A stretch of 64,000 nt of DNA from the human T2T-CHM13v2.0 reference genome, Homo sapiens. The DNA lies in the NCBI RefSeq assembly GCF_009914755.1, contig NC_060930.1, one strand, 5' to 3'. The notes beneath the pieces are model-generated. The model did no database searches. It saw only the letters and a list, made by a program, of their open reading frames with translations, and was not told the origin of the DNA. Each line of letters begins with the position of its first letter. The stretch's first letter is position 1. Made by a program: the position numbers and the translations under genes. Shown piece by piece: positions 221 to 47,447 of this stretch.

Positions 221-1798
221 AAAACTTCTCTGGTTTCCATTGTAACATGTAAGGAGTTTGGAAGTCATTACTGCATCCTAACAACAAACAAAAAGCTGAA
301 AAGGGCCTGGAAAATAAAAACTTGTCTCAGATCTATCAGAGAAGTGAGGTCACAGGGCAAACTACTGTCCTAAAAATTAGAGAGACTGAATACAGAGAAT
401 TACAACTTAAAGGAGAAGAAACCCACAAGCAGAAACCTCCACAGGAACCAGTGCTGGGCTATATAAACCTAAACTCTAATTGACAAATTCTTAGAGCCTT
501 AGTGTAGAGAAATCTAAGAGTTAAAACACCATGGGAACCCAGTCATATGGGAACCCACACACCTTCATGAGTTTACCATTCAGAGATTGACCCTATTCTC
601 CCAGTAGATATTGAAGAAAAATCCTCTCATGCTTCTGTCAGGGGAAGGGGGAAAGTAATCATTTAAAAGTATACCAGAGCATGCCATTCTTCTTAACAAG
701 GCCTGTCCTCAGGAGAAACTATTTTTACCAGAGCCTAACCTATTGGAGTTTTTCAGAGCCCAACTGACTGAGGGAAAGGAAATATTCAACTCTACCCCAC
801 TCTAGCCATCCTCTTCTACCTAAAAGGGGAGAAAAGTGAGAAGCACATACAAACTTCACAGTCCAGAGGCACAGGCTCACTAAAACATTGAGTGCTCATC
901 ACAGTACTAAAGAAATCTACCCTGACCCACACTGTCCCACCACATCACTAAAGGCCTATTTACTGCAATTCCTTTTACCCAGTCCATGTTCACCTTTCAA
1001 CAAAGAAATTATAAAGCATACTTAGAGGCAAAATGTGCAGTTTGAAAAAAGTAAGCATCAGACCCAGAGTTGGATATAGCAGGATGTTGCAGTTACCAGA
1101 TTAGGAATTTTAAAAAATTATGATTGATGTGTTAAGGACTCTACTGGACAAAATAGAGAACATGTAAGAATGGATGCATGATGTAAGCAGAGTGATGGAA
1201 ATTCTAAGACAGAATAAAAAAGAAATACTAAAAAAAGAAATGCTAGAGATAAATAACCCTGTAACAGAAATGAAGAATGACTTTGGTGAGCTCATTAGTG
1301 GACTGGAGATAGCCGAGAAAAAAAACTGTGAGCTTGAGGATATGTCAGTAGAAACTTTCAAAACTGAAAAGCAAAGAGTAAAATACCAAAAACAATGAAA
1401 TGGAATATCTAAGAAATGTGATAAAACTACAAAAGGTGTGAATACATGTAACGGAAATATCAAGAGGAGAAAGAGCAAACAGAAGCAATAATTGAAGCAA
1501 TAAGGACACAGTTTTCCCCAAATTCCTGACAGATATCAAACCGCAGATCCCGGAAGCAGAGAGAATACCAAGCAGGATAAATGCAAAAAACAAACAAACA
1601 AACAAAAAATACCCAAACCAAAAAAAAGCCTATACCTAGGCATATCATATTCAAATTACAGAAATCAAAGACAAATTCTTGAAAGAAGTCATAGGAAAAA
1701 AATACCTTATCTTTAGAGAATCAAAAGTAAGAATTACATCCAATTTTCTCCAGGAATGCATGCAAGCATGAAGAGAGTAGAGTAAATTATTTATGGTG
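221..1798 (+). mobile_element. L1M (L1MC/L1MD-like) 5' region and decayed ORF1, first segment of a ~9 kb nested L1
   Basis: ORF 1174-1398 (EMLEINNPVTEMKNDFGELISGLEIAE) resembles the L1 ORF1p coiled coil. 'tacctaggcatatcatattcaaatt' is typical of L1M ORF1. Confidence 0.8.
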
Positions 1799-3710
1799 TG
1801 TATTAGTTCATTTCATGCTGCTGATAAAGACACACCCAAGACTGGGTAATTTATAAAGAAAAATAGGTTTAATTGACTCACATTCTATGTGGCTAGGGAG
1901 GCCTCACAGTGATGGTGGGAGGCAAAAGTCATGTCTTACATGCAGCAGAGAAGAGAAAATGAGAGCCAAGTGAAAGGGTTTCCCCTTATAAAACCATCAG
2001 ATCTTGTGAGACTTACTCACTACCATGAGAACAGTATGGGGAAAACTGTGTCCATGATTCAGTTACCTCCTATAGGGTCCCTCCCATGACACATGGGGAA
2101 TTATGACAGCTACAATTGAAGATATGAGATTTGGGTGGGGACACAGCCAAATCATATAATTCTGCCCCTGGCTCATCCCAAATCTCATGTTCTCACATTT
2201 CAAAACCAATCATGCCTCCTCAATGGTCCCCTAAAGTCTTAACTCATTTCAGCATTAACTCAAAAGTCTCATCTGACACAAGGCAAGTCCCTTCTGCCTA
2301 TGAGCCTGTAAAATCAAAAGTAAGTTCGTTACTTCCTAGATACAATGAGGGTACAGGCATTAGATAGATACACCCATTCCAAATAGAAGAAATAGGCCAA
2401 AATGAAGGGGCCAAAGGCCCCATGCAAGTCTGAAATCCAACAGGACAGTCAAATTTTAAAGCTCCAAAATGATCTCCTTTGACTTCATGTCTCACATCCA
2501 GGTCAGACTGATGCAAGATGTGGGTTCCCATGGTCTTTGGAAGCTCTGCCCCCATAGCTCTACAGGGTACAGGCTCCCTCCCAGCTGCTTTCACAGGTTG
2601 GTGTTGAGTGTCTGTGGCTTCTCCAGGCACATGGTGCAAGCTGTCAGTGGATCTACCATTCTGGGGTCTGGAGGACAGTGGCCCTCTTCTCACAGCTTCC
2701 TTAAGCAGTGCCCCACTGGGGACTCTGTGGGGGCTTCAACCCCACATTTTCCTTCTGCACTTCCCTAGCAGAGGTTCTTCATGAGGGATCATCCCTGCAG
2801 GGAACTTCTTCCTGGACATCCAGGAGTTTCCATACATCCTCTAAAATCTAACCGGAGGTTCCCAAACCTCAATTCTTGACTTCTGTGCACCCGCAGGCTC
2901 AACACCATGTGGAAGCTGCCAGGGCTTGGGGCTTTCACCCTCTGAAGCCACGACCTGAACCATACCTTGACCCCTTTTAACCACGGCTGGAATGGCTGGG
3001 ACACAGGGCACCAAGTCCCTAGGATGTACACAGAAGAGGGGCCCTGGGCTCCACCCGCAAAACCATTTTTTCCTCCTAAGACTCTAGACCTATGATGGGA
3101 GGGTCTGCTGCAAAGGTCTCTGACATGCCCTGGAGACATTTTCCCTATTGTCTTGGTGATTAACATTTGACTCATTATTACTTATGTGAATTTTTGCAGC
3201 TGGCTTGAATTTCTCCTCAGAAAATGGGATTTTCTTTCCTATTGCATTGTCAGTCCTCCAAACTATTCCAACTTCTGTCTGTTACCCAATTCCAAGGTCA
3301 CTTCTGCATTTTTGGGTATCTTTTCAGGAGCATCCCACTCTACTGGTACCAATTTGCTGTATTAGTCTGTTCTCATGCTGCTGATAAAGACATACCCAAG
3401 ACTGGGCAATTTATAAAAGAAAGAGGTTTAATGAACTTACAGTTCCATGTGCCTGGGGAAGCCTCACAATCATGGTGGAAGGCAAGGAGGAGCAAGTCAC
3501 CTCTTACATGGATGGCAGTAGGCAAAAGAGAGAGCTTGTGCAGGGAAACTCCCCTTATAATATGGTCAGATCTTGTGAGACTTATTCACTATTATGGGAA
3601 CAGCACAGGAAAGACCTGCCCCCATTATTCAATTACCTCCCACCATATCCCTCCCACAACATATGGAATTCAAGATGAGATTTGGGTTGAGACACAGCCA
3701 AACTATATCA
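1799..3710 (-). mobile_element. THE1 (ERVL-MaLR) element, chimeric: THE1B-type LTR 1799-2158, internal region 2159-3357 (internally deleted), THE1A-type LTR 3358-3710
   Basis: Both LTRs start 'tgtattagt' and end near 'gacacagccaaa...ata(t)ca'. Between them is THE1-int sequence (e.g. 'ttttaaagctccaaaatgatctcctttgac'). Confidence 0.93.
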
Positions 3711-4760
3711 GTGCATTAAGGATTGTCATGTCTTTATGGGGTATTGACCCTTTTATCATTTTGTTATGTCCCTCTTTATCCCTGATAACTTTCCTTGTTC
3801 CGAAATTTGCTTTGTATGGAATTACATAGCTACTCCTGCTTTCTTTTGATTGGTGTTAGCATAATTATCTTCACTCGTTTTCTTTTAATCTATATGTGTC
3901 TTTATATTTAAGATGAGTTTTTTGTAGACAACAATAGTTTGGCCTTCTTTTTTGATCCACTTTGATATATATATTTTAATCAGTGTATTTAGACCATTGA
4001 GTTTTAAAATGATTGTCAATGGATCTGGACTCATATCTACCATATTTGTTAATGTTTTCTATTCATTTACCTTGTTCTTATTTTGTCTTCTTTTCTGTTT
4101 CTGCCTTTTGTGGTTTTAAGTGAGCATTTTATATGATTTCATTTTCTCTCCTTTCTTAGCATAACACTTGTACTTCTTTTTGTACTTTTTAAAGTGATTC
4201 TCTTAGTTTGTAATATACATTTACAACTAATCCAAGTCCAATTTCAAATAACACTTTACCACTTCATATTATTACCAGTACTTTGTAATAAAATATTCCA
4301 AACTTCTCTCTCCCATACCTTATATTATTGTTGTCATTTATTTTACTTATACATAAGCATACATAAGTATCATAAGCTTAAATATATCTATATCTATACA
4401 TATGTACCCACATAAGCATACATAATAAAATATATAGATTTTTTAAGCAAACTACTATGTTAGATCAATTAAGAATAAGAAAAAATAAAAGTTTGCATTT
4501 TACTTCCACTTATTTCTTCTTGATGCTGTTTTTCTCTTTTCATAGATGAGAGTTTCTGAACTATATCATCTTCTTCTCTCTGAAGAACTTCTCTTAATGT
4601 TTTTGCAAGGCACTCCTAGCAACAAATGCACTCCATTTTTGTTTGCTGAGAAAGTCTTGATTTCTCTTTCACATTTTCTTTTCTTTTAATTCTTCACTTT
4701 TGAAAGATAATTTCACAAGGTACAGAATTATAGGTGGTGGTGGGGTTTCTCTTAACATCA
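3711..4760 (-). mobile_element. Inverted middle segment of the host L1M (ORF1 end, inter-ORF region, ORF2 start)
   Basis: The T-rich plus strand is antisense L1. Its reverse complement continues the L1 broken at 1798 and joins the L1 that resumes at 5821. Confidence 0.88.
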
Positions 4761-5820
4761 TGATATGATTTGGTTGTGTCCCCACCCAAATCTTATCTTG
4801 AATTGTAGCTCCATGAGCGGGGCTCTCATGAAGAATCTATGCTAGGGCAGTGAGGAAGGGAAATGTGGGGTTGAAGCCCCCACACAGAGTTCCTCCTGGG
4901 GCACCACCTAGTGTAGCTGTGAGAAGAGGGCCACCGTCCAGACCCCAGAATGGTAGATCCACCAACGGCTTGCACCATGTGTCTGGAAAAGCCACAGACA
5001 TTCAACACCAGACCATGAAAGCAGCTGGGAGGGAGGCTGTACCCTGCAAAGCCACAGGGGCAGAGCTGCCCAAGACCATGGGAACCCACCTCTTGCATCA
5101 ATGTGACCTAGATATGAGCCATGGAGTCAAAGGAGATCATTTTGGAGCTCTAAGATTTGACCACCCCGCTGGATTTTGGACCTGCATGGGGCCTGTAGCC
5201 CCTTTGTTTTAGCCCATTTCTCCCATTTGGAATGGCTGTATTTACCCAATGCTTATACCTCCATTGTATCTAAAAAGTAACTAACATGCTTTTGATTTTA
5301 CAGGCTCATAGGCAGAAGGGACTTGCCTTGTCTCAGATGAGACATTGCACTGTGGACTTCTGAGTTAATACTGAAGTGAGTTAAGACTTTGGGGGACTGT
5401 TGGGAAGGCATTACTGGTTTTCAAATGTGAGGACATGAGATTTGGGAGGGGCCAAGGGTGGAATGATATGGTTTGGCTCTGTGTCGCCACCCAAATCTCA
5501 TCTTGAATTCCCACATGTTGTGAGAGGGACCCAGTGGGAGGTAATTGAATCATGGGGGCAGGTCTTCCCCATGCTGTTCTCGTGATAGTGAATAAGTCTC
5601 ACAAGATCTGATGATATTATAAGGGGAGTTTCCCTGCACAAGCTTTCTCTTTTTGCCTGCTGCCATCCATGTAAGATGTGACTTGCTCCTCCTTGCCTTC
5701 TACCATGATTGTGAGGCTTCCTCAGCCGTGTGGAACTGTAAGTCCATTAAACCTCTTTCTTCTGTAAATTGCCCAGTCTCAGGTCTGTCTTTATCAGTAG
5801 TGTTAGAGCAGTCTAATACG
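4761..5820 (+). mobile_element. THE1 (ERVL-MaLR) element, chimeric and deleted: ~50 bp THE1B-type 5' LTR stub, 3' part of internal region (~4815-5463), THE1A-type LTR 5464-5820
   Basis: 'tgatatgatttggttgtgtccccacccaaatc' at 4761, THE1-int sequence, and a complete LTR 'tgatatggtttggc...gtctaatacg'. Confidence 0.92.
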
Positions 5821-6394
5821 TGCACATAAAAACAGAGTGTCAAAATATGTAAGCAAAAACTGATACAAGTGCAAGGAGAAATAGTTAAATCCAGTATTAT
5901 TATTGGAGATTTTAACACACCCCTCTATTAGAAATGGACAGGTCCAGTAGGCAAGAAGATCAGTAACAACAGAGTTGAACTCAACAACACCATCAATCAA
6001 CTGGTTATAATGGATATCTATTGACTACTTCATCTAACAACAGCAGAATACACATTCTTCCAAGCTTACATGGAACATTCACCAGTATAGAACATATTCT
6101 GGGCCAAAAAACACATACCTTAACAAATTTGAAGGAATAGGAATCATACAATCAATGTCTTCTCTCAGACTGCAATAAAATTAAACTAGAAATCAAAAAC
6201 AGGTAGTTGGAAAATCCCCACATACTTAGAGATTAAACAACATACTTCTAAGTAACACATAGGTCAAAGAAGAAATCTCAAGATAAAATTTTAAATACTT
6301 TGAACTAAATGAAAATGAAAACACAACTTATGAAAACTTGTGGGATGCAGCAAACATCTCACAAGTTTTTAAAATGCGTAAAGGGAAATATACA

Positions 6395-7419
6395 CAGTAG
6401 TACTTCCTCATTTGCAGTTTTACTTTTTGTGGTTTCAGTTATCTGTGGTCAACTACAGTCTGAAAATATTAAGTGAAAAATTCCAAAAATAAACAATTCT
6501 TAAGTTTTAAATTGAATACTGTTCTGAGTAGCATGATAAAATCTCTTGCCTTCCCACTTCATCCCCTATGAGATGTAAATCCTCCTTTGTTCACCTTATA
6601 TACATTCACTACCTGGCCATTAGTCATTTAGTAGCAGTCTTTTTTTTTTTTGAGACAGGGTCTCACTCTGTCACACAGGCTGGAGTGCAGTGGCACTGTC
6701 TTGGCTTACTGCAACCTCTACCTCCTGTGTTCAAGTAATTCTCCTGCCTCAGCTCTGCCCCCCTCCCCCCAGCCCCCCACCGTCCCTGAGTAGCTGGGAT
6801 TACAGGCAGGCCACCATGCCTGGCTAACTTTCGTATTTTTTGGTAGAGGCGGGGTTTCACCATGTGAGCCAGGCTGGTCTCGAATTTCTGGCCTCAAGTG
6901 ATCTGCCTACCTCAGCCTCCTGGAGTGTTGGGAATACAGGCGTGAGCAGTCTTGGTTATTAGATTGACTATTGTGATATGACCGTGCTTGTGTTCAAGTA
7001 ACCCTTATTTTACTTAATGGCTCCAAAGCACAAAAGTAGAAATGCTGGCAATTCAGATATGAAGGAAGCCATAAAGTACTTCCTTTAAGTGAAAAGGTGA
7101 ACATTCTTGACTTAATAAGAAAAGAAAAAAATTATATGCTGAACTTGCTAACATCTACGGTAAAAATGAATCTTCTATCCACGATATTGTGAAGAAGGAT
7201 AAAAAAATTCATGCTAGTTTTGTTGTCACACCTCATGCTGCAAAAGTATGGCCACTGTAAGTGCCTAGTTAAGATGAAAAAAGCGTTACATTTTGTGGCT
7301 GGAAGACAGAAATAGAAACATATTCTGATTTACAGCATTTAGGCTGGGTACTATCCAAGGTTTCAGGCATCCACTGGAAGTCTTGGAACATAGCGCCTGT
7401 GGATAAGGGGAAACTACTG
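6395..7419 (+). mobile_element. MER44 (Tigger7-derived TcMar DNA transposon) inserted in L1 ORF2
   Basis: Termini 'cagtagtac...' and '...ggataaggggaaactactg' followed by TA. Interior matches MER44 ('ggtttcagttatctgtggtcaac', 'ggtttcaggcatccactgg'). Orientation is from recalled consensus. Confidence 0.8.
6640..6947 (-). mobile_element. Alu (older S/J type), slightly 5'-truncated, nested in MER44
   Basis: Poly-T followed by 'gagacagggtctcactctg'; TSD-like 'agcagtctt' on both sides. Confidence 0.93.
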
Positions 7420-8833
7420 TAGTATTGAATGCATATATTAGGAAAGCAGAAAGATCTAAAATCAATCATGCAAGCTTTTACCATAGAAAACTAGAGAAAG
7501 GGCAAATTAATCCAAAGTAAGCACAAGAAACAATAAATATTAGAGTAGAAATTAAAGAAATTGAAATAGGAAATCAATAGGGAAAATTTTTGAAACCAAA
7601 AGCTGGGTCTTTGAAAAGATAACAAAACTGATAAGCTTCTAGCCAGGCTAGGAAAAAGAAGGGCACAAATTACTACTTTTGGAAGGAGGAGATTTCACTT
7701 CAGAGCCCATGGACATTGGAAGGATAATAAAGGAATACTATGAATAATTCTGTGCCCACAAATTTGATAACCTAGGGGAAATAGATGAATTTCTTGAAAA
7801 ATAAAATCTGATAAAACTCACACAAGAAGAAATAGACAATCCAGATAGGCCTAGATCTATTAAAGGAATGGAATTAATAATTAATAACCTTCCAAAACAG
7901 AAACCATGAGACCCTGATCAGTTCACTAGTAAATTCTACCAAATACTTAAGGAACAAATTATATCAATTCTCTACAGTCTTTTCTAAAATATAGAGGCAT
8001 ATGGAATATTTACTAACTCATTCTATGAGGCCAGCTTCACCATAATGTCAAAATCAGACAAAAACATTATGAGAAAAGATCAATATTTCTTATGAATATA
8101 GACACAAAAGTCCTCAACAAAATATTAGCAGACTGAATCAAGCAATGTATAAAAATAATTATATTCCATGACTAAGTGGGATTTATCCCAGGTATGCAAG
8201 GTTGGCTCAAATTTGAAAATCAATTACTGCAATCCATCACATCTACAGACTAAGGAAGAAAAATGACATGGTTATATCAAGAGATGCAGAAAAAGCATTT
8301 GTCAAAATACAACACCTATTTGTAATAAAAACTCAGCTAGAATTTTAGAGGGGAACTCCCTCATCCTGATAAAGAACATCTACAAAACCCCTACAACTAA
8401 CATAAGACTTAATGGCAAGAAACTAAAAGCTTTTCTACTCAGATCAGGAACAAGACAAGGATGTTCCTTCTCACCACTTCTTACATTTTACTGGAAATCC
8501 TAGCTAACACAATAAGACATGAAAAGGAAATAAAAGATATATTGATCGAGAAGAAATAAATAAAACAGTCTTTGTTCATGGATAATATGATTGTCGAGGT
8601 AAAAAATCTGAAGAAATCAACAAAACAATTCCTGGAACTGATATGTGATTATAGCAAGATTGCAGGATACAAGGTTAATGTACAAAATTTAATGTCTTTT
8701 CCATATGCCAGAAATGAAAAAGTGGAATTTGAAATTAAAGACAAAAATCCTTTCAGATTAGTGCATCCCCAAAATGAAATAGTTAAGTACACATCCAACA
8801 AAATATGTACAAGATCTATATGAAAAAAAACTA

Positions 8834-9236
<403 letters not shown>

Positions 9237-9451
9237 TCATTTCCTCCCACATTGATCTACAGATTCAATGAAATTCCAATTAAAATCCTGACAAGTTATT
9301 TTGCAGGTATCAACAAACAGATTCCAAAGTTTCTGTGGAGAGGCAAATAACCTGAAATAGACAACAAAATATTGAGTGAAGTTGGAGTACTGACATTATT
9401 CAACTAGGTTACAAATGAAATGGGAAAACAGTTTCATAGTTGGCTTTGTTC

Positions 9452-9515
9452 TATAGTTTACATTAGGGTTAACTCTAAGTGTTGTACATTCTGTGGGTTT
9501 TGGAAAATGCATAAT
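9452..9515 (-). mobile_element. Short L1MC/L1MD-like 3' UTR fragment
   Basis: 'atagtttacattagggttaactc...gttgtacattctgtgggtttt' resembles the antisense L1MC/MD 3' end. Confidence 0.55.
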
Positions 9516-9785
9516 ATGCTGTTTTGGTGAAACCAAAAGCAGTAAGTGAGCAATATATGCCTTAGCAATCTATCTTTATTAATTCACATATTTAGAGCTG
9601 ACTTATTCATATAAAGCTTTGCTTCTTATAAGAAATAACTGGCTTTCTCTTTAAAATAAGCTGAAGCTGTGTGAGATTGTATAAAACATTATATATTGAC
9701 TAATAGGGAAAAACTTTCTTGTGTATACAGGATTTTGTAATTAAGGTTGAAAATGTAATCTTTAAACCTGAAAGGCTTAAAAAAA

Positions 9786-11001
9786 TTTTTAGCCCCCACA
9801 TGTAAAGTGAAAATGTGATGTTTGTCTTTCTGTGCCTGCTTTATTTCATTCAGCATGAGTTCCATCATGCTCATTCATGCTGCCTCAAATGACAAGATTT
9901 TATTATTTTTATGCCTAAATATTATTCAATTGTGTATATATACCACATTTTCTTTATCCATTCATCCTTTGATAGACAGTTAGGATGATTTTATATCTTG
10001 GCTATTGTGAATAGTGCTCCAATAAACATGAGAGTGCAAATATTTCTTTGACATACTGATTTCATTTCCTTTGGACACATACCCAGTAGTGGGGTTGCTT
10101 GATCATATGGTATTTCTATTTGGAGTTTTTTGAGGAAACATCACACTGTTTTTTATAATGGCTGTACTAATTTGCATTCTTATCAACAGTGTAAGAGTTC
10201 CCTTTTCTTTGCATCCCACTTGCGTTTGTTATTATTTGTCTTTTTCATATGAATAATAGCCATTTTAACTGGGGTGAGATAATATCTTATTGTGGTTTTG
10301 ATAGGCATTTTCCTTATGATTAGTGATGTTGATCGTTTTTTATTATACCTGTTGGCCATTTGTATGTCTTCTTTTGAGAAATGTTCATCCAGGTCCTTTG
10401 CCCACTTTTTGATCAGGTCATTTGTTTTCTTGCTACTGAGTTGAGTTCCTTAAATATTTTAGATATCAACCCCATATCAGACATATAGTTTGATAATATT
10501 TTCTCCCATTCTATAGATTGTCTCTTTATTCTGTTGATTGTTTCCTTCTCCGTGCAGAAAATTTTTAGTTTGGTATAATCCCGTTTGTCTATTTTTGCTT
10601 CTGTTGCCTGTGCTTTTGAGGTCTTACCCAAGAAATGCTTGCCCAGACCAATGTCCTGAAGCCTTTCCCCAGTGTTTTTTCTAGTAGTTTCACAGCTTCA
10701 GGTCTTACATTTAAGTCTTTAATCCATTTTGATTTTATTTTTATATATTATGAGAGAAAGAAATCTGATTTCAAATTTCTGATTTCTTTTGCATTTAGAT
10801 ATCTAGTTTTACAGCACCATTTATTGATGAGACTGTTCTTTCCCTTATATATTCTTGGTGCCTTTGTTAAACATGATTTGGTTGTACATGTCTGGATTTA
10901 CTTCTGAGTTCTCTATTCTTTTTCATTGGTCTATGTGTCTGTTTTTGTGTCAGTACCATGCTGTTTTGGTTACTATAGCTTTGTAGTATATTTTGAAGTC
11001 A
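9786..11001 (-). mobile_element. L1MA 3' ORF2 / 3' UTR fragment
   Basis: ORF 10413-10631(-) (KTSKAQATEAKIDKRDYTKLKIFCTEKETINR) matches the L1 ORF2 C-terminal region. Confidence 0.9.
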
Positions 11002-11236
11002 TAAAGCCTATGCAACTATTATCAATCTGGGCACATGGATGGCATTCAATATACATTTTTTCTTTCTTAAGAGTCATTCAATCATCAAAATTTGGGAAGT
11101 TTTTGGTAAATATAGGACTTTAACTTTTGTGAAAGTTAAAAAAGCAAAAGAAGATCTTCCCCCAAATAAGAAAGGATCTAGTGTTGGAGAGAACAGAAAC
11201 ACAGCTGAAAATATTCATGAAAAGATGTGGAACGTA

Positions 11237-12437
11237 AGCTCAGGGTCAACCAAGGATATTAATCAGACTATTAAATGTATTCTCTTCTAATTAGATCTGA
11301 AGTGTGTTTACCCTGCTTAAAAAAGTGGACCAGCTGATAAGTACCAAACAATTCTGGAGCGATATAAAGAGAGGCATCACCCAAAGAAGGTCATGAGTTC
11401 ACTGGAAAAATGAAGTAACACTGTTGTCATGAGTGGCCACAGTAATAGCCAGAAGAGATTGAATGTGCCTTAAGTTTAAGGATAAAAATGTAATTGTGAT
11501 GGGAGGTTGGAGAGGAAGCTAGGCCTGTAGCCAAAGTATGGAAAAAAAAAAAAAAGGAAATACAGACAAAGGTAGCAATAGAGTTGGGTGATTTAGGAAG
11601 CTAGGTCTGTGAACAAAGGGAATGTACCAGGTTCCTCCCTTCATGCGGTGCCCAGGGAACACTTTCCAGGGCTCAAGTGCCCTCTAAAGGCATCACTCTG
11701 CCAGGTTGGACTCAGAGCCAAATGTAATTGTGCTGCTCTCTTCCATTCAAGTAGGTGCCTTTGTTTAACATAAGTGACCACTTTTAAAGAGCTCAGTCTT
11801 CTTGGTTCCACTCTTGAACTTTCAGTGTTATCAACAAAAACCTGTTTTGTTTTCGCATTTTCCCCTCAGTGCCTTAGCATGGTGTCCCAAACACTTCTTG
11901 ATGATTTTTAATACTTGGATTATACACATAATGCCCTTCTCAATCTCCCTTTTACTTCCCCTCAAATAAAATAAAAAATTTAAGATACTGCATTCCTGAG
12001 TCCAAGGATTGTTACAGTTGTCACCCCCAAAATTAGGACAATAATCACACAAATTACAATTCTTCTATTCAGAACATAAATCTGATATTCTTGAGCTCAT
12101 TTGATAAATATTAAGTATCCTCATATGGTTTCTGGTTTACATACATTTGCCATGTATAATATCCATAAGCCATTCTGGGTGTGTGTCCCTATTTTATAAT
12201 CTCTAGTTGGGAGGGAGAGCACCAAGCCTTTAAATTACGATCTCATGCAGAATAACAGCTCAGGGTCAACCAAGGATAATGATCAGACCATTAAATATGT
12301 TCTCTACTGTTCGGATCTGAAGTGTGTTGACCCTCTTAAAATAGTGGACCAGATGATAAGTACCAAACACTTCTGGAGGGATATAAAGAGAGGCATCACC
12401 CAAAGAAGGTCATGAGTTCACTAGAAAAATGAAGTAA
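11237..12437 (+). repeat. Dispersed direct repeat, ~181 bp, copies at 11237-11418 and 12257-12437
   Basis: Both copies run 'agctcagggtcaaccaaggata...ggcatcacccaaagaaggtcatgagttcact.gaaaaatgaagtaa'; roughly 85-90% identical by eye. Confidence 0.95.
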
Positions 12438-12918
12438 AACTTATTCATTTCATGTCAGCTGCTAAAGGATGTGCTGCAGGGTGTAGGGTGTGGCTTAACT
12501 GATTACCCATTACGGTGATCCTAATAGTTTTCATCAATGAGAATATTGTCACCGAATCTTAGCATTTTTGAAATGAAATGTTGTGGCTCTATTATGTAGT
12601 TCTTTTTGCCAGTCTCTGAAATCAGTTTTTTAAATAACTTACCTCTAAACTCTCGCTCTGCATTTCCTTTTGTTTCCTGGATGTGAATGTGGATTCATTG
12701 GTAGATGTTAGGCAAAGGCTAACTTATCAGTCATTTCTAGGCTCTTCAAGGTGAAGCAATGCCCACAGACAGTCTTAGAAGGGAATTCTGTTCTCTCCTT
12801 TCCTTATTTATTCAAAGACTTTCAGATTGTATTTCACTATTACTAGAGAATTCTTTAGTAAAGCTGGATGGATTCTTCAATGCATTGGGAACATTCATTC
12901 ATGGAAATTGGCTCTATT

Positions 12919-13185
12919 GCAGTGTTTCTCAGACTTGTGTATGCATACGAGTCCCCTGGGGATCTTGTGAACATGCAGGTTCTATCCTGTAGGTCATTTA
13001 ATTTCACTGAATTTGTGCAATGCAAAAAGTCCCTTTCTGAACCTGAATCCACAGATACCAGCATAACCTGGAGCCTGTTAGAAAGGCAGACTTTCGGATC
13101 CTACTCCAGATCCATAGAATCAGAATCTGCGTTTTAACAAGATTCCAGAGGGAATTCATTTGTACAAAATTTGGGAAACATCATC
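12919..13185. mobile_element. MER5-type hAT-Charlie fragments
   Basis: 'cagtgtttctcagactt', 'gaatcagaatctgcgttttaacaagattcc'. Confidence 0.65.
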
Positions 13186-13859
13186 CTGAAAATCACGTAG
13201 GATCAGCTATGTAATGGCAAAAGCAAAAGCAAACTTATGGTACCTTCTCTTTTTTATGTTATTCTCTGATTATTCCCTGAGGATGCAGCTGCATATAATA
13301 CGGAATCATTCATGTAAAGAGAAGCAACCTGTCCAAAATACCTTCCTTTTTGTATTGAATCTTGAAACAGTGATGTCATTTCCTATAATATACCACATAC
13401 TAACAGTTGCAAATTGGTATCTGAGGGCTGTGTCTAGACAGAAGATATGTTTTGTTGGTTATTTTGTTTGTCCTGTGGATGATTAAAAGGCAATGTTATT
13501 GGGCAGGTGTGAGCAGTTAGCAGCTATTTTTTCACATGGAGAAGATAATACAGAGGTGTTATGCATAGTATCTATAGGCATTTGAGTCTGGAATCCTTAA
13601 GAGTAATAATTCCCAACATAAATTCCATGGAACAGTAATGTAAGAATGATTAACAGGTATTATTTGAAAAAATAAAAAAAGTTTCTGTGATGCGTTGGCA
13701 TGATAAACAGTGAAACAAAAGAAATTTGGGGGGAGGATATTACAGAGGCTTTATATCATAATATGCAGTTTGAACCTCCACTGCAACATTTCTCAAGCTT
13801 ATTTACTCAGGAAATTCTGTGTCTCAAATGATTAGAGTTCTATAGAACATACTTTAGAA

Positions 13860-31913: not shown

Positions 31914-32275
31914 TGGTATGATTTGACTCTGTGGCTCCACCCAAATCTCACCTTTAATTGTAATCCCTTATGTTATGGGAGGAACCTGGTGGGAGGTGAT
32001 TGGATTATGGGAGCGGTTTCCCCATGCTGTTCTTGTGATAGTCAGGGAGTTCTTACCAGATCTGATGGTTTTAGAAGTGGCAATTTCCCCTATGCACTCT
32101 CTCTCTCTCCTGCCACCATGTAAGACATGCCTTGCTTCTCCCTCCCCTTCTGCCATGATTGTAAGTTTCCTGAGGCCTCCCCAGCCATGTTGAACTGTGA
32201 GTCAATTAAACCTCTTTCCTTCATGAATTACCCAGTCTCAGGTATTCTTTATAACTGTGAAAATGGGCTAATACC
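31914..32275 (+). mobile_element. MSTA/THE1D-like solo LTR inserted in a MIR
   Basis: 'ccacccaaatctcacc...gtaagtttcctgaggcctccccagcc...gctaatac'; MIR-like sequence on both flanks. Confidence 0.9.
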
Positions 32276-42442: not shown

Positions 42443-43102
<660 letters not shown>

Positions 43103-47092: not shown

Positions 47093-47447
47093 TAATATGG
47101 TTTTGCTGTATCCCCACCCAAATCTCATCTTGAATTGTAGCTCCCACAATTCTCACGTGTTGTGGGAGGGACCTGGTGGGAGGTAATTGAATAATGGGAA
47201 TGGGTCTTTCCTGTGCTATTCTCATGATAGTGAATAAGTCTCACAAGATCTGATGGTTTTATAAGGGGAAGTTCCCCTGCACACACTGTCTCTTGCCTGC
47301 TGCCATGTAATACGTCCCTTGCCCTTCCGCCATGATTGTGAGGCCTCCCCAGCCATGTGCAACCGTGAGTCAATTAAACCTCTTTTCTTTATAAATCACC
47401 CAGTCTTGGGTATGTCTTTATTAGCAGTGTGAGAGCAGACTAATACA
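47093..47447 (+). mobile_element. THE1B-like solo LTR
   Basis: Complete LTR with a perfect 5-bp TSD gcaaa (47088-47092 / 47448-47452). Confidence 0.94.

What the first reader, a model, noticed from the sequence alone, without database searches (positions are those of the whole stretch)
1794..5825. Fossil inversion between two inverted THE1 elements, with swapped TSDs and LTRs and a flipped L1 core
Seen in sequence, first: the host L1 is sense at 221-1798 and from 5821, but antisense at 3711-4760. Reverse-complementing that block restores a continuous L1: ...ttatggtg | tgatgttaagagaaa... and ...cttaatgcac | tgcacataaaaac.... Second: neither THE1 has its own 5-bp TSD, but the flanks match crosswise. 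'tggtg' (1794-1798) matches the reverse complement of 'catca' (4756-4760, tgatg; 4/5). The reverse complement of 'gtgca' (3711-3715) equals 'tgcac' (5821-5825; 5/5). Third: the LTRs pair crosswise. 3358-3710 and 5464-5820 share 'cttgaattcc' and 'atattataaggggagtttccctgcacaagct', whereas 1799-2158 and the 4761 stub share the 'aattgtagct' variant. Established: MaLRs insert with identical LTRs and a 5-bp TSD, and recombination between inverted repeats inverts the DNA between them. Inference: two independent THE1 insertions ~1 kb apart recombined, giving two chimeric elements.
Basis: partly seen in the sequence, partly recalled or inferred. Interest (0 to 1): 0.85.

Follow-up and report, generated by a model that had tools for sequence, protein, structure and literature searches.

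The report
Old inversion between two THE1 retroelements
Two retrotransposon copies that landed head-to-head about 1 kb apart in an old L1 element later exchanged halves and flipped the DNA between them; this is a clean but ordinary example of a known kind of rearrangement, in an intron of a non-coding RNA gene.

Summary
Window 221-1798, the reverse complement of 3711-4760, and 5821 onward form one continuous L1. In 29 other genomic L1 copies the three pieces align in that order on one strand: 24 of 24 copies with a left match, 28 of 28 with a right match.

- **Target-site duplications:** the 5-bp duplications match crosswise (4/5 and 5/5). Within the present elements they match 1/5 and 0/5.
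- **LTRs:** 3358-3710 and 5464-5820 fall in one LTR clade and 1799-2157 in another. Pairing the two LTRs of present element A is rejected (AU p 0.00058). The crosswise pairing is not rejected (p 0.366).
- **Internal sites:** element A switches type between 3324 and 3041, probably near 3168-3176.

Two independent THE1 insertions in opposite orientation therefore exchanged arms and inverted about 1.6 kb of present-day sequence.

Caveats:
- The two crosswise LTRs are not sisters in the free tree.
- Six L1 bases are missing beside one duplication.
- Both type switches lie at or near internal deletions, so homologous exchange (about 0.7) is not fully separated from end-joining (about 0.2).
- The date and any polymorphism could not be tested.

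The mechanism is already described for Alu, L1 and one THE1C pair. Interest is low to moderate.

The parts
221..1798 (+). Host L1, 5' part (ORF1 region by recall), sense
   Evidence: Aligns on the same strand and upstream of the reverse-complemented middle block in 24 of 24 reference L1 loci with a left match.
1794..1798 (+). TGGTG: one copy of the 5-bp target-site duplication of the first THE1 insertion (X1)
   Evidence: Matches the reverse complement of 4756-4760 in 4 of 5 bases. The reference L1 copies carry this 5-mer once: a 5-base overlap in 5 of 6 references whose alignments reach both ends.
1799..2157 (-). 3' LTR of X1, not moved by the inversion (type 1 LTR, carries the extra 15-bp segment)
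   Evidence: Falls in the LTR clade of 30 rows with support 99/93*. 85-87% identical to the best genomic copies. The word TTGAATTGTAGCT is present, as in 28 of 29 type 1 LTRs and 0 of 17 type 2 LTRs.
2158..3170 (-). Internal part of element A derived from X1 (3' portion of the THE1 internal region)
   Evidence: Type 1 at 5 of 5 strict diagnostic columns (window 3041, 2718, 2594, 2414, 2373). Softer sites are type 1 from window 3168 leftward.
3171..3357 (-). Internal part of element A derived from X2, moved by the inversion. It holds a 365-bp internal deletion whose junction is 3253/3254
   Evidence: Type 2 at window 3324 (1/10 against 12/14 references) and 3342. Softer type 2 sites at 3229 and 3176. 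The deletion is seen against full-length copies.
3358..3710 (-). 5' LTR of X2, moved and flipped by the inversion (type 2 LTR)
   Evidence: Lies in the same 100/99* clade as 5464-5820. 88.7% identical to it, inside the 86.8-91.0% range of 4 intact LTR pairs. Shares 3 rare variants with it.
3711..4760 (-). Host L1 middle block (end of ORF1, spacer, start of the ORF2 endonuclease), now antisense
   Evidence: Its reverse complement is colinear between the two flanks in the reference L1 loci. An open frame in reference L024 that spans the point matching 3711/5821 hits human LINE-1 ORF2p residues 27-150, E 4.6e-26.
3711..3715 (-). GTGCA: reverse complement of the X2 target-site duplication
   Evidence: Reverse complement TGCAC equals 5821-5825 in 5 of 5 bases.
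4756..4760 (-). CATCA: reverse complement of the X1 target-site duplication
   Evidence: Reverse complement TGATG matches TGGTG at 1794-1798 in 4 of 5 bases.
4761..4814 (+). Stub of the 5' LTR of X1 (first 52-56 bases), moved and flipped. It is joined at 4812-4817 to the internal region about 1.59 kb further along the element
   Evidence: 92% identical to the matching end of 1799-2157, against 86-87% to the type 2 LTRs. Carries the type 1 word. The junction was read.
4815..5463 (+). 3' portion of the internal region of X2, not moved
   Evidence: Type 2 at 4 of 4 strict diagnostic columns (window 4894, 5015, 5195, 5236). 82.9% identical to A 2159-2785 in inverted orientation.
5464..5820 (+). 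3' LTR of X2, not moved (type 2)
5821..5825 (+). TGCAC: second copy of the X2 target-site duplication
5821..6376 (+). Host L1, continuation of the ORF2 endonuclease region, sense
   Evidence: Same strand as and directly downstream of the reverse-complemented middle block in 28 of 28 reference loci with a right match; within 5 bases in 24 of them.

Best explanation
Two THE1-type (MaLR) LTR retroelements of different LTR types inserted independently into one old L1. They sat about 1,045 bp apart, in opposite orientation, each with its own 5-bp target-site duplication. X1 was on the minus strand between L1 bases now at 1798 and 4760. X2 was on the plus strand between L1 bases now at 3711 and 5821.

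Later the two elements exchanged arms within their internal regions, most likely by homologous recombination in register. The switch point lies near window 3168-3176 in present element A. The exchange inverted everything between the two switch points: the 5' part of X1, the L1 spacer and the 5' part of X2.

This produced two chimeric elements, a flipped L1 core, and duplications and LTR types that now match crosswise. A 365-bp deletion in A and a roughly 1.59-kb deletion in B are read as separate events. The deletion in B removed the reciprocal switch point.

Shown here: the inversion, the two independent insertions and the chimerism of A. Inferred: homologous exchange as the mechanism, the order of the deletions, and an old date.

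The stated confidence is for the whole statement including homologous exchange. For the inversion alone I put about 0.93.
For: L1 order and strand:
- The three L1 pieces are colinear only if 3711-4760 is reverse-complemented. They lie on the same strand in 24/24 and 28/28 reference copies.
- The left junction overlaps by exactly 5 bases in 5 of 6 references. The right junction is within 5 bases in 24 of 28.
- An endonuclease reading frame in reference L024 runs across the point where X2 sits.

Duplications: they match crosswise 4/5 and 5/5, against 1/5 and 0/5 within the present elements.

LTRs:
- Two clades with support 100/99* and 99/93*. A's two LTRs fall in different clades. A's right LTR shares a clade with B's LTR.
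- Holding A's two LTRs together costs 82.7 log-likelihood units, AU p 0.00058. Holding the crosswise pair together is not rejected, p 0.366.
- Crosswise pair identity is 88.7%, inside the range of 4 intact pairs, 86.8-91.0%.
- The crosswise pair shares 3 rare variants, tied rank 2 of 351 pairs. Only 4 of 346 unrelated pairs reach 3, while the control true pairs score 3, 3, 2 and 0.
- The stub carries the type 1 15-bp segment.

Internal sites:
- With 13 type 1 and 14 type 2 full-length references, A is type 2 at window 3324 and type 1 at 5 of 5 later strict columns. B is type 2 at 4 of 4 strict columns.
- Leave-one-out calls are right in 104/128 and 110/133 cases.
- Softer sites put the switch between window 3176 (type 2) and 3168 (type 1). 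That is 77-85 bp away from the deletion junction, in colinear sequence without an indel. The pattern also holds in the 6+9 references that were not picked for likeness to A.
Against: - In the unconstrained tree the two crosswise LTRs are not sisters. 3358-3710 pairs with a copy on another chromosome (94/74). 5464-5820 pairs with two others (90/88). Those references were, however, picked as the best genomic matches to these same LTRs.
- The 3 shared rare variants lie within 9 bp and may be one event.
- The right L1 junction needs a 6-bp gap.
- The switch is placed away from the deletion on the strength of two sites only. At window 3229, 2/13 type 1 against 11/14 type 2 references carry A's letter. 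At 3176 the counts are 2/13 against 8/14.
- A few sites disagree with a single clean switch. At reference element (L071) positions 1343-1345 both A and B carry type 1 letters. At 1437-1438 they are swapped the wrong way.
- The strict interval for the switch (3324-3041) contains A's deletion, and B's switch lies in its deletion junction.
- No outgroup or second assembly was available.
Confidence: 0.7

Rival explanations
1. The inversion is real but arose from two double-strand breaks, or a replication template switch, inside the two THE1 elements. The ends were rejoined without register, and sequence was lost at both joints. On this reading the junctions are the two internal deletions themselves, 3253/3254 in A and 4812-4817 in B. 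About 770 bp of X1 and 825 bp of X2 would have been lost in the same event.
For: - Both type switches fall at or near a deletion. The strict interval in A (3324-3041) contains the 365-bp deletion. B changes from type 1 stub to type 2 internal sequence across its deletion junction.
- One event would explain what otherwise needs three.
- Little or no microhomology is visible at either joint, as in end-joining.
- In print: 27% of TE-mediated inversions were not homologous, and 4 of 7 Alu-mediated inversions had deletions or insertions at both breakpoints (PMC9675761, passages read). Some retrotransposon-mediated inversions come with deletion of part of the inverted sequence (PMC2603318, passage read).
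Against: - Window 3229 and 3176, which lie on the far side of A's deletion, carry type 2 letters. The change to type 1 comes at 3168, in sequence that is colinear with all references. By my arithmetic the likelihood ratio from these two sites is about 19 to 1 for type 2.
- Deletions of hundreds of bases are common in elements of this age, so two independent ones are not a strong coincidence.
Confidence: 0.22
2. There was no inversion. The antisense L1 block is a separate L1 fragment, an L1 5' inversion made at insertion (twin priming), or an assembly error. The LTR and flank matches are then coincidence or gene conversion.
For: - L1 copies often carry an inverted 5' segment (recalled knowledge).
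- The crosswise LTRs are not sisters in the free tree.
- Gene conversion among LTRs is reported in the title and abstract start of PMC4921805, seen in the listing only.
Against: - The pattern is sense, antisense, sense, with base-level continuity at both joints. Twin priming gives a single inverted 5' block.
- The joints coincide exactly with THE1 ends and with 5-bp duplications that match crosswise.
- Element A has LTRs of two clades, AU p 0.00058. Neither insertion nor gene conversion of one LTR explains this together with the flipped L1.
- The repeats are only 83-88% identical, so a mis-join in a long-read telomere-to-telomere assembly is unlikely (inference).
Confidence: 0.03

Closest known systems
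Retrotransposon recombination-mediated inversion (RRMI), Lee et al. 2008, PLoS One 3:e4047 (PMC2603318; abstract and passages read)
   Same: Two elements of one family in opposite orientation recombine. Both become chimeric and their target-site duplications no longer match within an element. The DNA between them is inverted. The reported sizes, 166 bp to 81 kb with a median of 1,452 bp, cover this case.
   Different: That survey covered L1 and Alu pairs and events since the human-chimpanzee split, each polarised with an outgroup. Here the elements are LTR elements of the MaLR group. The state was inferred from one genome alone, and the event is undated.
Human polymorphic inversion HsInv0347, mediated by inverted THE1C copies (Aguado et al. 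2014, PMC3961182; table row read)
   Same: An inversion whose inverted repeats are THE1 elements (1.6-kb repeats, 7.1 kb).
   Different: That inversion is polymorphic in living humans and lies on chr14. Here the repeats come from two LTR types and are now only about 83% identical inside. Polymorphism was not tested.
Transposable element-mediated rearrangements (Balachandran et al. 2022, PMC9675761; passages read)
   Same: All inversions there had TEs in opposite orientation at the junctions, and 73% were consistent with homologous repair. Breakpoint deletions and insertions occur. 14 of 543 events involved ERVL-MaLR elements.
   Different: The MaLR events were not analysed further in that paper, and all events are recent variants in three people. 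Its supplementary tables were not opened, so whether any MaLR event is an inversion is unknown to me.
HERV-mediated rearrangements detected by discordant LTRs and flanks (Hughes and Coffin 2001, Nat Genet 29:487)
   Same: The logic matches, as I recall it: LTRs of one provirus that do not group together, and mismatched flanking duplications, betray recombination between two proviruses.
   Different: That work concerned HERV-K proviruses. I saw only the reference entry; the content is recalled.
Galileo transposon inversions in Drosophila (PMC2775673)
   Same: Ectopic recombination between inverted transposon copies generates inversions.
   Different: A DNA transposon in flies, producing chromosomal-scale inversions. 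Only the title and the start of the abstract were seen in the listing.

Membership tests
Retrotransposon recombination-mediated inversion (RRMI) | Two elements of the same family in opposite orientation at the two ends of the inverted segment | tested here: met
   A is on the minus strand and B on the plus strand. Their internal parts are 82.9% identical in inverted orientation over 643 columns.
Retrotransposon recombination-mediated inversion (RRMI) | Intervening DNA inverted relative to both flanks | tested here: met
   L1 colinearity holds only after reverse-complementing 3711-4760: 24/24 and 28/28 references on one strand.
Retrotransposon recombination-mediated inversion (RRMI) | Target-site duplications mismatched within each element and matched between the two elements | tested here: met
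   Crosswise 4/5 and 5/5; within the present elements 1/5 and 0/5.
Retrotransposon recombination-mediated inversion (RRMI) | Both elements chimeric | tested here: met
   A has LTRs of two clades and a type switch in its internal part. B has a type 1 stub joined to a type 2 internal part and LTR.
Retrotransposon recombination-mediated inversion (RRMI) | Exchange in register within homologous sequence, that is, recombination rather than end-joining | tested here: inconclusive
   The soft switch at window 3168-3176 lies in colinear sequence. The strict interval 3324-3041 includes a 365-bp deletion, and the reciprocal point is lost in B's deletion.
Retrotransposon recombination-mediated inversion (RRMI) | Ancestral, uninverted state seen at the orthologous locus of another species or haplotype | not testable with these tools
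   No primate genome or second human assembly is held.
THE1 / MaLR LTR retroelement | LTR-internal-LTR structure with LTRs of about 350 bp, an internal part of about 1.58 kb and a 5-bp target-site duplication; thousands of genomic copies | tested here: met
   Four intact genomic relatives have a 2,275-2,291 bp LTR-internal-LTR layout. The first-look candidate counts are 6,230-13,380 per query. The 5-bp duplications were read.
THE1 / MaLR LTR retroelement | Match to the curated THE1 consensus and subfamily (THE1A-D) in Dfam/Repbase | not testable with these tools
No repeat library is held. I call the two LTR kinds type 1 and type 2.
LINE-1 (host element) | Relatives encode the ORF2p endonuclease | tested here: met
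   An open frame in reference L024 hits LINE-1 ORF2p residues 27-150, E 4.6e-26. Pfam Exo_endo_phos scores E 8.3e-4, below its cut-off.
LINE-1 (host element) | The window's own copy still gives a protein-family match | tested here: not met
   14 stop-free stretches of the window's L1 gave no L1 family in Pfam. The copy is about 30% diverged from its relatives.
L1 5' inversion by twin priming | One inverted 5' block directly joined to the sense 3' block, with no sense L1 upstream | tested here: not met
   Sense L1 lies on both sides of the antisense block. Both joints are occupied by THE1 ends with duplications.

The most novel reading that the evidence does not exclude
The flip is not ancient. 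It is specific to apes or humans, or still polymorphic, having arisen between repeats that were already about 83% identical, by a replicative or microhomology route. It would then be an unlisted structural variant inside an intron of AHI1-DT. It would also show that strongly diverged MaLR pairs can still drive inversions. Nothing in one genome dates the event, so this is not excluded.
Probability: 0.08. Interest if true: 0.4.

Novelty: new member of a known kind. Interest (0 to 1): 0.25.

Why it matters
On its own this is a small neutral rearrangement in an intron, with no sign of function. Its value is as a worked case. The full history can be read from a single genome using three independent marks: continuity of the host L1, swapped 5-bp duplications and swapped LTR types. 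That history is two insertions, one inversion and two deletions.

The same three marks could be scanned genome-wide. This would count old inversions mediated by LTR elements, which species comparisons limited to Alu and L1 or to recent variants leave out. It also warns annotators that an LTR element with discordant LTRs need not be two nested insertions.

Tried and rejected
- **Pfam on the window's L1.** 14 stop-free stretches gave only two chance-level hits, Aldedh and Urease_alpha, both below cut-off. Ten open stretches from reference copies gave one sub-threshold Exo_endo_phos hit. An ORF1-region stretch of L014 gave nothing against solved structures.
- **First crossover mapping.** With 5+6 references it had too little power. 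Leave-one-out calls for type 1 copies were right only about half the time with relaxed sites, so I added 16 references.
- **Sliding-window mean identity.** It separates the LTRs clearly but not the internal part.
- **Log-ratio sums per segment.** They are biased in the last internal segment, reference element (L071) positions 1701-1938, where both reference groups score positive. That segment was not used.
- **MAFFT placement of B's stub.** The alignment misplaced the 15-bp segment. The stub was judged by a word search and by eye instead.
- **Literature search** for AHI1-DT together with inversion found 0 papers. No search was made by genome coordinates, and no inversion database was available.
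- **Rejected: twin priming, separate L1 fragments, a single element duplicated in inverted orientation.** The three L1 pieces do not overlap apart from the 5-bp duplications, and the LTRs are of two types.

Full report
**What is there.** Reading the sequence, a repeat scan and a self-comparison give the following layout.
- An old L1 runs in sense at 221-1798.
- Element A is a complete LTR-internal-LTR element on the minus strand: LTR 1799-2157, internal part 2158-3357, LTR 3358-3710.
- L1 sequence runs in antisense at 3711-4760.
- Element B is a truncated element of the same family on the plus strand: LTR stub from 4761 to about 4812-4816, internal part to 5463, LTR 5464-5820.
- L1 runs in sense again from 5821.

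The window is human (T2T-CHM13 chr6), inside an intron of the lncRNA AHI1-DT according to the hub's table. No repeat library is held, so I call the two LTR kinds type 1 and type 2.

**Is the L1 one element with a flipped core?** I searched the window's own genome with the reverse complement of 3711-4760 (2,718 first-look candidates, 40 scored). I took 29 loci (L012-L040), each with 1.5 kb of flank.
- In every locus that has a match, the left piece, the reverse-complemented middle and the right piece lie on one strand and in that order: 24 of 24 for the left piece, 28 of 28 for the right.
- Six loci have alignments that reach the very ends at the left joint. Five show an overlap of exactly 5 bases, which is what a 5-bp target-site duplication predicts. 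The sixth has a 641-bp insert at that spot.
- At the right joint 24 of 28 loci place the two ends within 5 bases, most often with 1 base between.
- The alignment explains that offset. The references read ...TTAATGTGTATGCAC..., whereas the window reads ...TTAATGCAC. The window copy therefore lacks about six bases just before the duplicated TGCAC (19 reference rows, one too diverged to judge). This is a small blemish, not a break in colinearity.
- The host family was checked through a relative. An open frame in locus L024 spans the point matching 3711/5821 and hits the human LINE-1 ORF2p endonuclease, residues 27-150, at E 4.6e-26.
- The window's own copy is too decayed to give family hits.

**Flanking duplications.** TGGTG (1794-1798) against the reverse complement of 4756-4760 (TGATG) matches 4 of 5. 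The reverse complement of 3711-3715 against 5821-5825 (TGCAC) matches 5 of 5. The flanks of present element A match 1 of 5 and those of B 0 of 5. With equal base frequencies the joint chance of the crosswise matches is about 1.5e-5 (my arithmetic).

**LTRs.** By blastn:
- 3358-3710 and 5464-5820 are 87.9% identical.
- 1799-2157 is 72.8% and 72.5% identical to them.
- The stub is 92% identical to the matching end of 1799-2157 and 86-87% to the other two.

I built a maximum-likelihood tree of 50 LTRs. They were the three full window LTRs, one more window copy, 9 and 29 genomic best matches of the two kinds, and both LTRs of four intact elements. The tree has two clades, with support 100/99* and 99/93*. 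3358-3710 and 5464-5820 fall in one clade and 1799-2157 in the other.

Forcing the two LTRs of present element A together costs 82.7 log-likelihood units and is rejected (AU p 0.00058).

Each member joins another genomic copy (94/74 and 90/88). The sister arrangement is not rejected, however (p 0.366). One of four true LTR pairs also failed to pair in the same tree. The references had been chosen as the closest genomic matches to these same LTRs, which works against pairing.

Three further measures bear on the pairing.
- The crosswise pair is 88.7% identical, inside the 86.8-91.0% range of the four intact pairs.
- It shares three variants that occur in at most one of 25 other type 2 LTRs, tied rank 2 of 351 pairs. 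Only 4 of 346 unrelated pairs reach three, and the true pairs score 3, 3, 2 and 0. The three variants sit within 9 bp and may be a single event.
- A 15-bp segment marked by the word TTGAATTGTAGCT is present in 28 of 29 type 1 LTRs and 0 of 17 type 2 LTRs. It is present in 1799-2157 and in the stub, and absent from the other two LTRs.

**Where did the exchange happen?** I used an intact element (L071, 2,289 bp) as a ruler.
- A lacks ruler positions 462-826, a 365-bp deletion whose junction is window 3253/3254.
- B joins LTR position about 52-56 to internal position about 1287, with the junction at window 4812-4817.

I collected 13 full-length copies with type 1 LTRs and 14 with type 2 LTRs and aligned them with A and B. 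The internal regions of the two types differ at few sites. There are 10 strict diagnostic columns, and leave-one-out calls are right in 104 of 128 and 110 of 133 cases.
- A is type 2 at window 3324.
- Four diagnostic columns fall in A's deletion.
- A is type 1 at all five later columns (3041, 2718, 2594, 2414, 2373).
- B is type 2 at all four columns it covers (4894, 5015, 5195, 5236).

This is the reciprocal pattern an exchange predicts. The switch in A lies between 3324 and 3041.

Softer sites narrow the interval.
- At window 3229, A's letter is carried by 2/13 type 1 and 11/14 type 2 references. At 3176 the counts are 2/13 and 8/14. Both sites read as type 2.
- From 3168 onward the sites read as type 1: 12/13 against 4/14 at 3168, and similar counts at seven more sites.
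- Three weak sites disagree (3110, 3079, 3050).
- The pattern also holds in the 6+9 references that were not chosen for likeness to A.

The switch is therefore most likely at about 3168-3176. That is 77-85 bp away from the deletion, in sequence colinear with all references. This favours an in-register homologous exchange followed by independent deletions.

The evidence is thin. It rests on two sites, with a likelihood ratio of about 19 by my arithmetic. A few sites elsewhere do not fit one clean switch: at ruler positions 1343-1345 both elements carry type 1 letters, and at 1437-1438 they are swapped the wrong way. The reciprocal junction in B is gone.

A two-break inversion with loss of about 770 and 825 bp at the joints therefore remains a live rival. 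I put homologous exchange at about 0.7 and the end-joining or replicative route at about 0.2. The inversion itself stands at about 0.93.

**History inferred.**
1. An L1 inserted.
2. X1 (type 1) inserted on the minus strand.
3. X2 (type 2) inserted on the plus strand about 1,045 bp downstream, in the endonuclease region.
4. The two elements exchanged arms. This inverted the 5' part of X1, the L1 spacer and the 5' part of X2, about 2.85 kb before the deletions and about 1.6 kb now (roughly 3172-4814).
5. Deletions occurred in A and B.

The LTR divergence of X2 is 40 mismatches in 353 compared sites. With recalled neutral rates this implies an insertion tens of millions of years ago. The inversion can be any age since then, and only other genomes can date it. 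Homologous exchange would have been easier soon after insertion, when the internal parts were far more alike than today's 83% (inference).

**Comparison with what is known.**
- The mechanism and its signature are described for L1 and Alu as retrotransposon recombination-mediated inversion: chimeric elements, duplications that no longer match within an element, and inverted DNA between them. That survey found 252 human-chimpanzee inversions of 166 bp to 81 kb (PMC2603318; abstract and passages read).
- A polymorphic human inversion with THE1C inverted repeats is listed as HsInv0347 (PMC3961182; table row read).
- A survey of TE-mediated rearrangements counted 14 ERVL-MaLR events, found all inversions between oppositely oriented TEs, judged 73% homologous, and noted breakpoint deletions (PMC9675761; passages read; supplementary tables not opened).
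- The use of discordant LTRs and flanks to detect recombination between proviruses goes back, as I recall, to Hughes and Coffin 2001. I saw that paper only as a reference entry.
- A search for AHI1-DT together with inversion found no paper. I did not search by coordinates.

**Verdict.** This is a new instance of a known kind of event, well resolved from a single genome, with no indication of function.

Noticed in passing
window 1889-1901 (minus strand): The unmoved type 1 LTR carries CCTCCCTAGCCAC, an exact match to the 13-mer CCNCCNTNNCCNC. I recall this as the human PRDM9 hotspot motif associated with THE1A/B elements. There are 3 matches in the window against 0.62 expected. It lies in the LTR, not in the mapped switch interval, and today's PRDM9 motif says little about an old event.
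   Followed up: partly
window 3711-3720 / 5821: The L1 lacks about 6 bases (TGTGTA or its equivalent) directly before the duplicated TGCAC, compared with the aligned reference L1 copies. This is a small deletion between TG repeats, either before or after the X2 insertion.
   Followed up: partly
window 3253/3254 and 4812-4817: Internal deletions of 365 bp in element A and about 1.59 kb in element B, from LTR position about 55 to internal position about 1287. Neither joint shows clear microhomology.
   Followed up: yes
window 2736-2738 / 4872-4874 and 2645 / 4963-4964: Sites that break the simple one-switch pattern. At reference element (L071) positions 1343-1345 both A and B carry type 1 letters. 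At 1437-1438 A is type 2 and B is type 1. This could be variation within the subfamilies or short conversion tracts. It remains unexplained.
   Followed up: no
window 47095-47447, 42443-43102, 31914-32252: Three more THE1-like LTR copies in the window, 70-79% identical to the LTRs studied. The one at 47095 carries the type 1 word but branches at the base of the type 2 clade.
   Followed up: partly
window about 6400-7200: The L1 is interrupted again after about 6376. By eye and recall, the interrupting sequence looks like a Tigger-type DNA transposon end and the start of its transposase. An antisense Alu sits inside it at about 6640-6950, which is masked in NCBI's file.
   Followed up: no
locus L027, about 100-750: This reference L1 copy has a 641-bp insert exactly at the point that corresponds to the X1 insertion site in the window. 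By eye the insert begins like an Alu. Probably coincidence.
   Followed up: no
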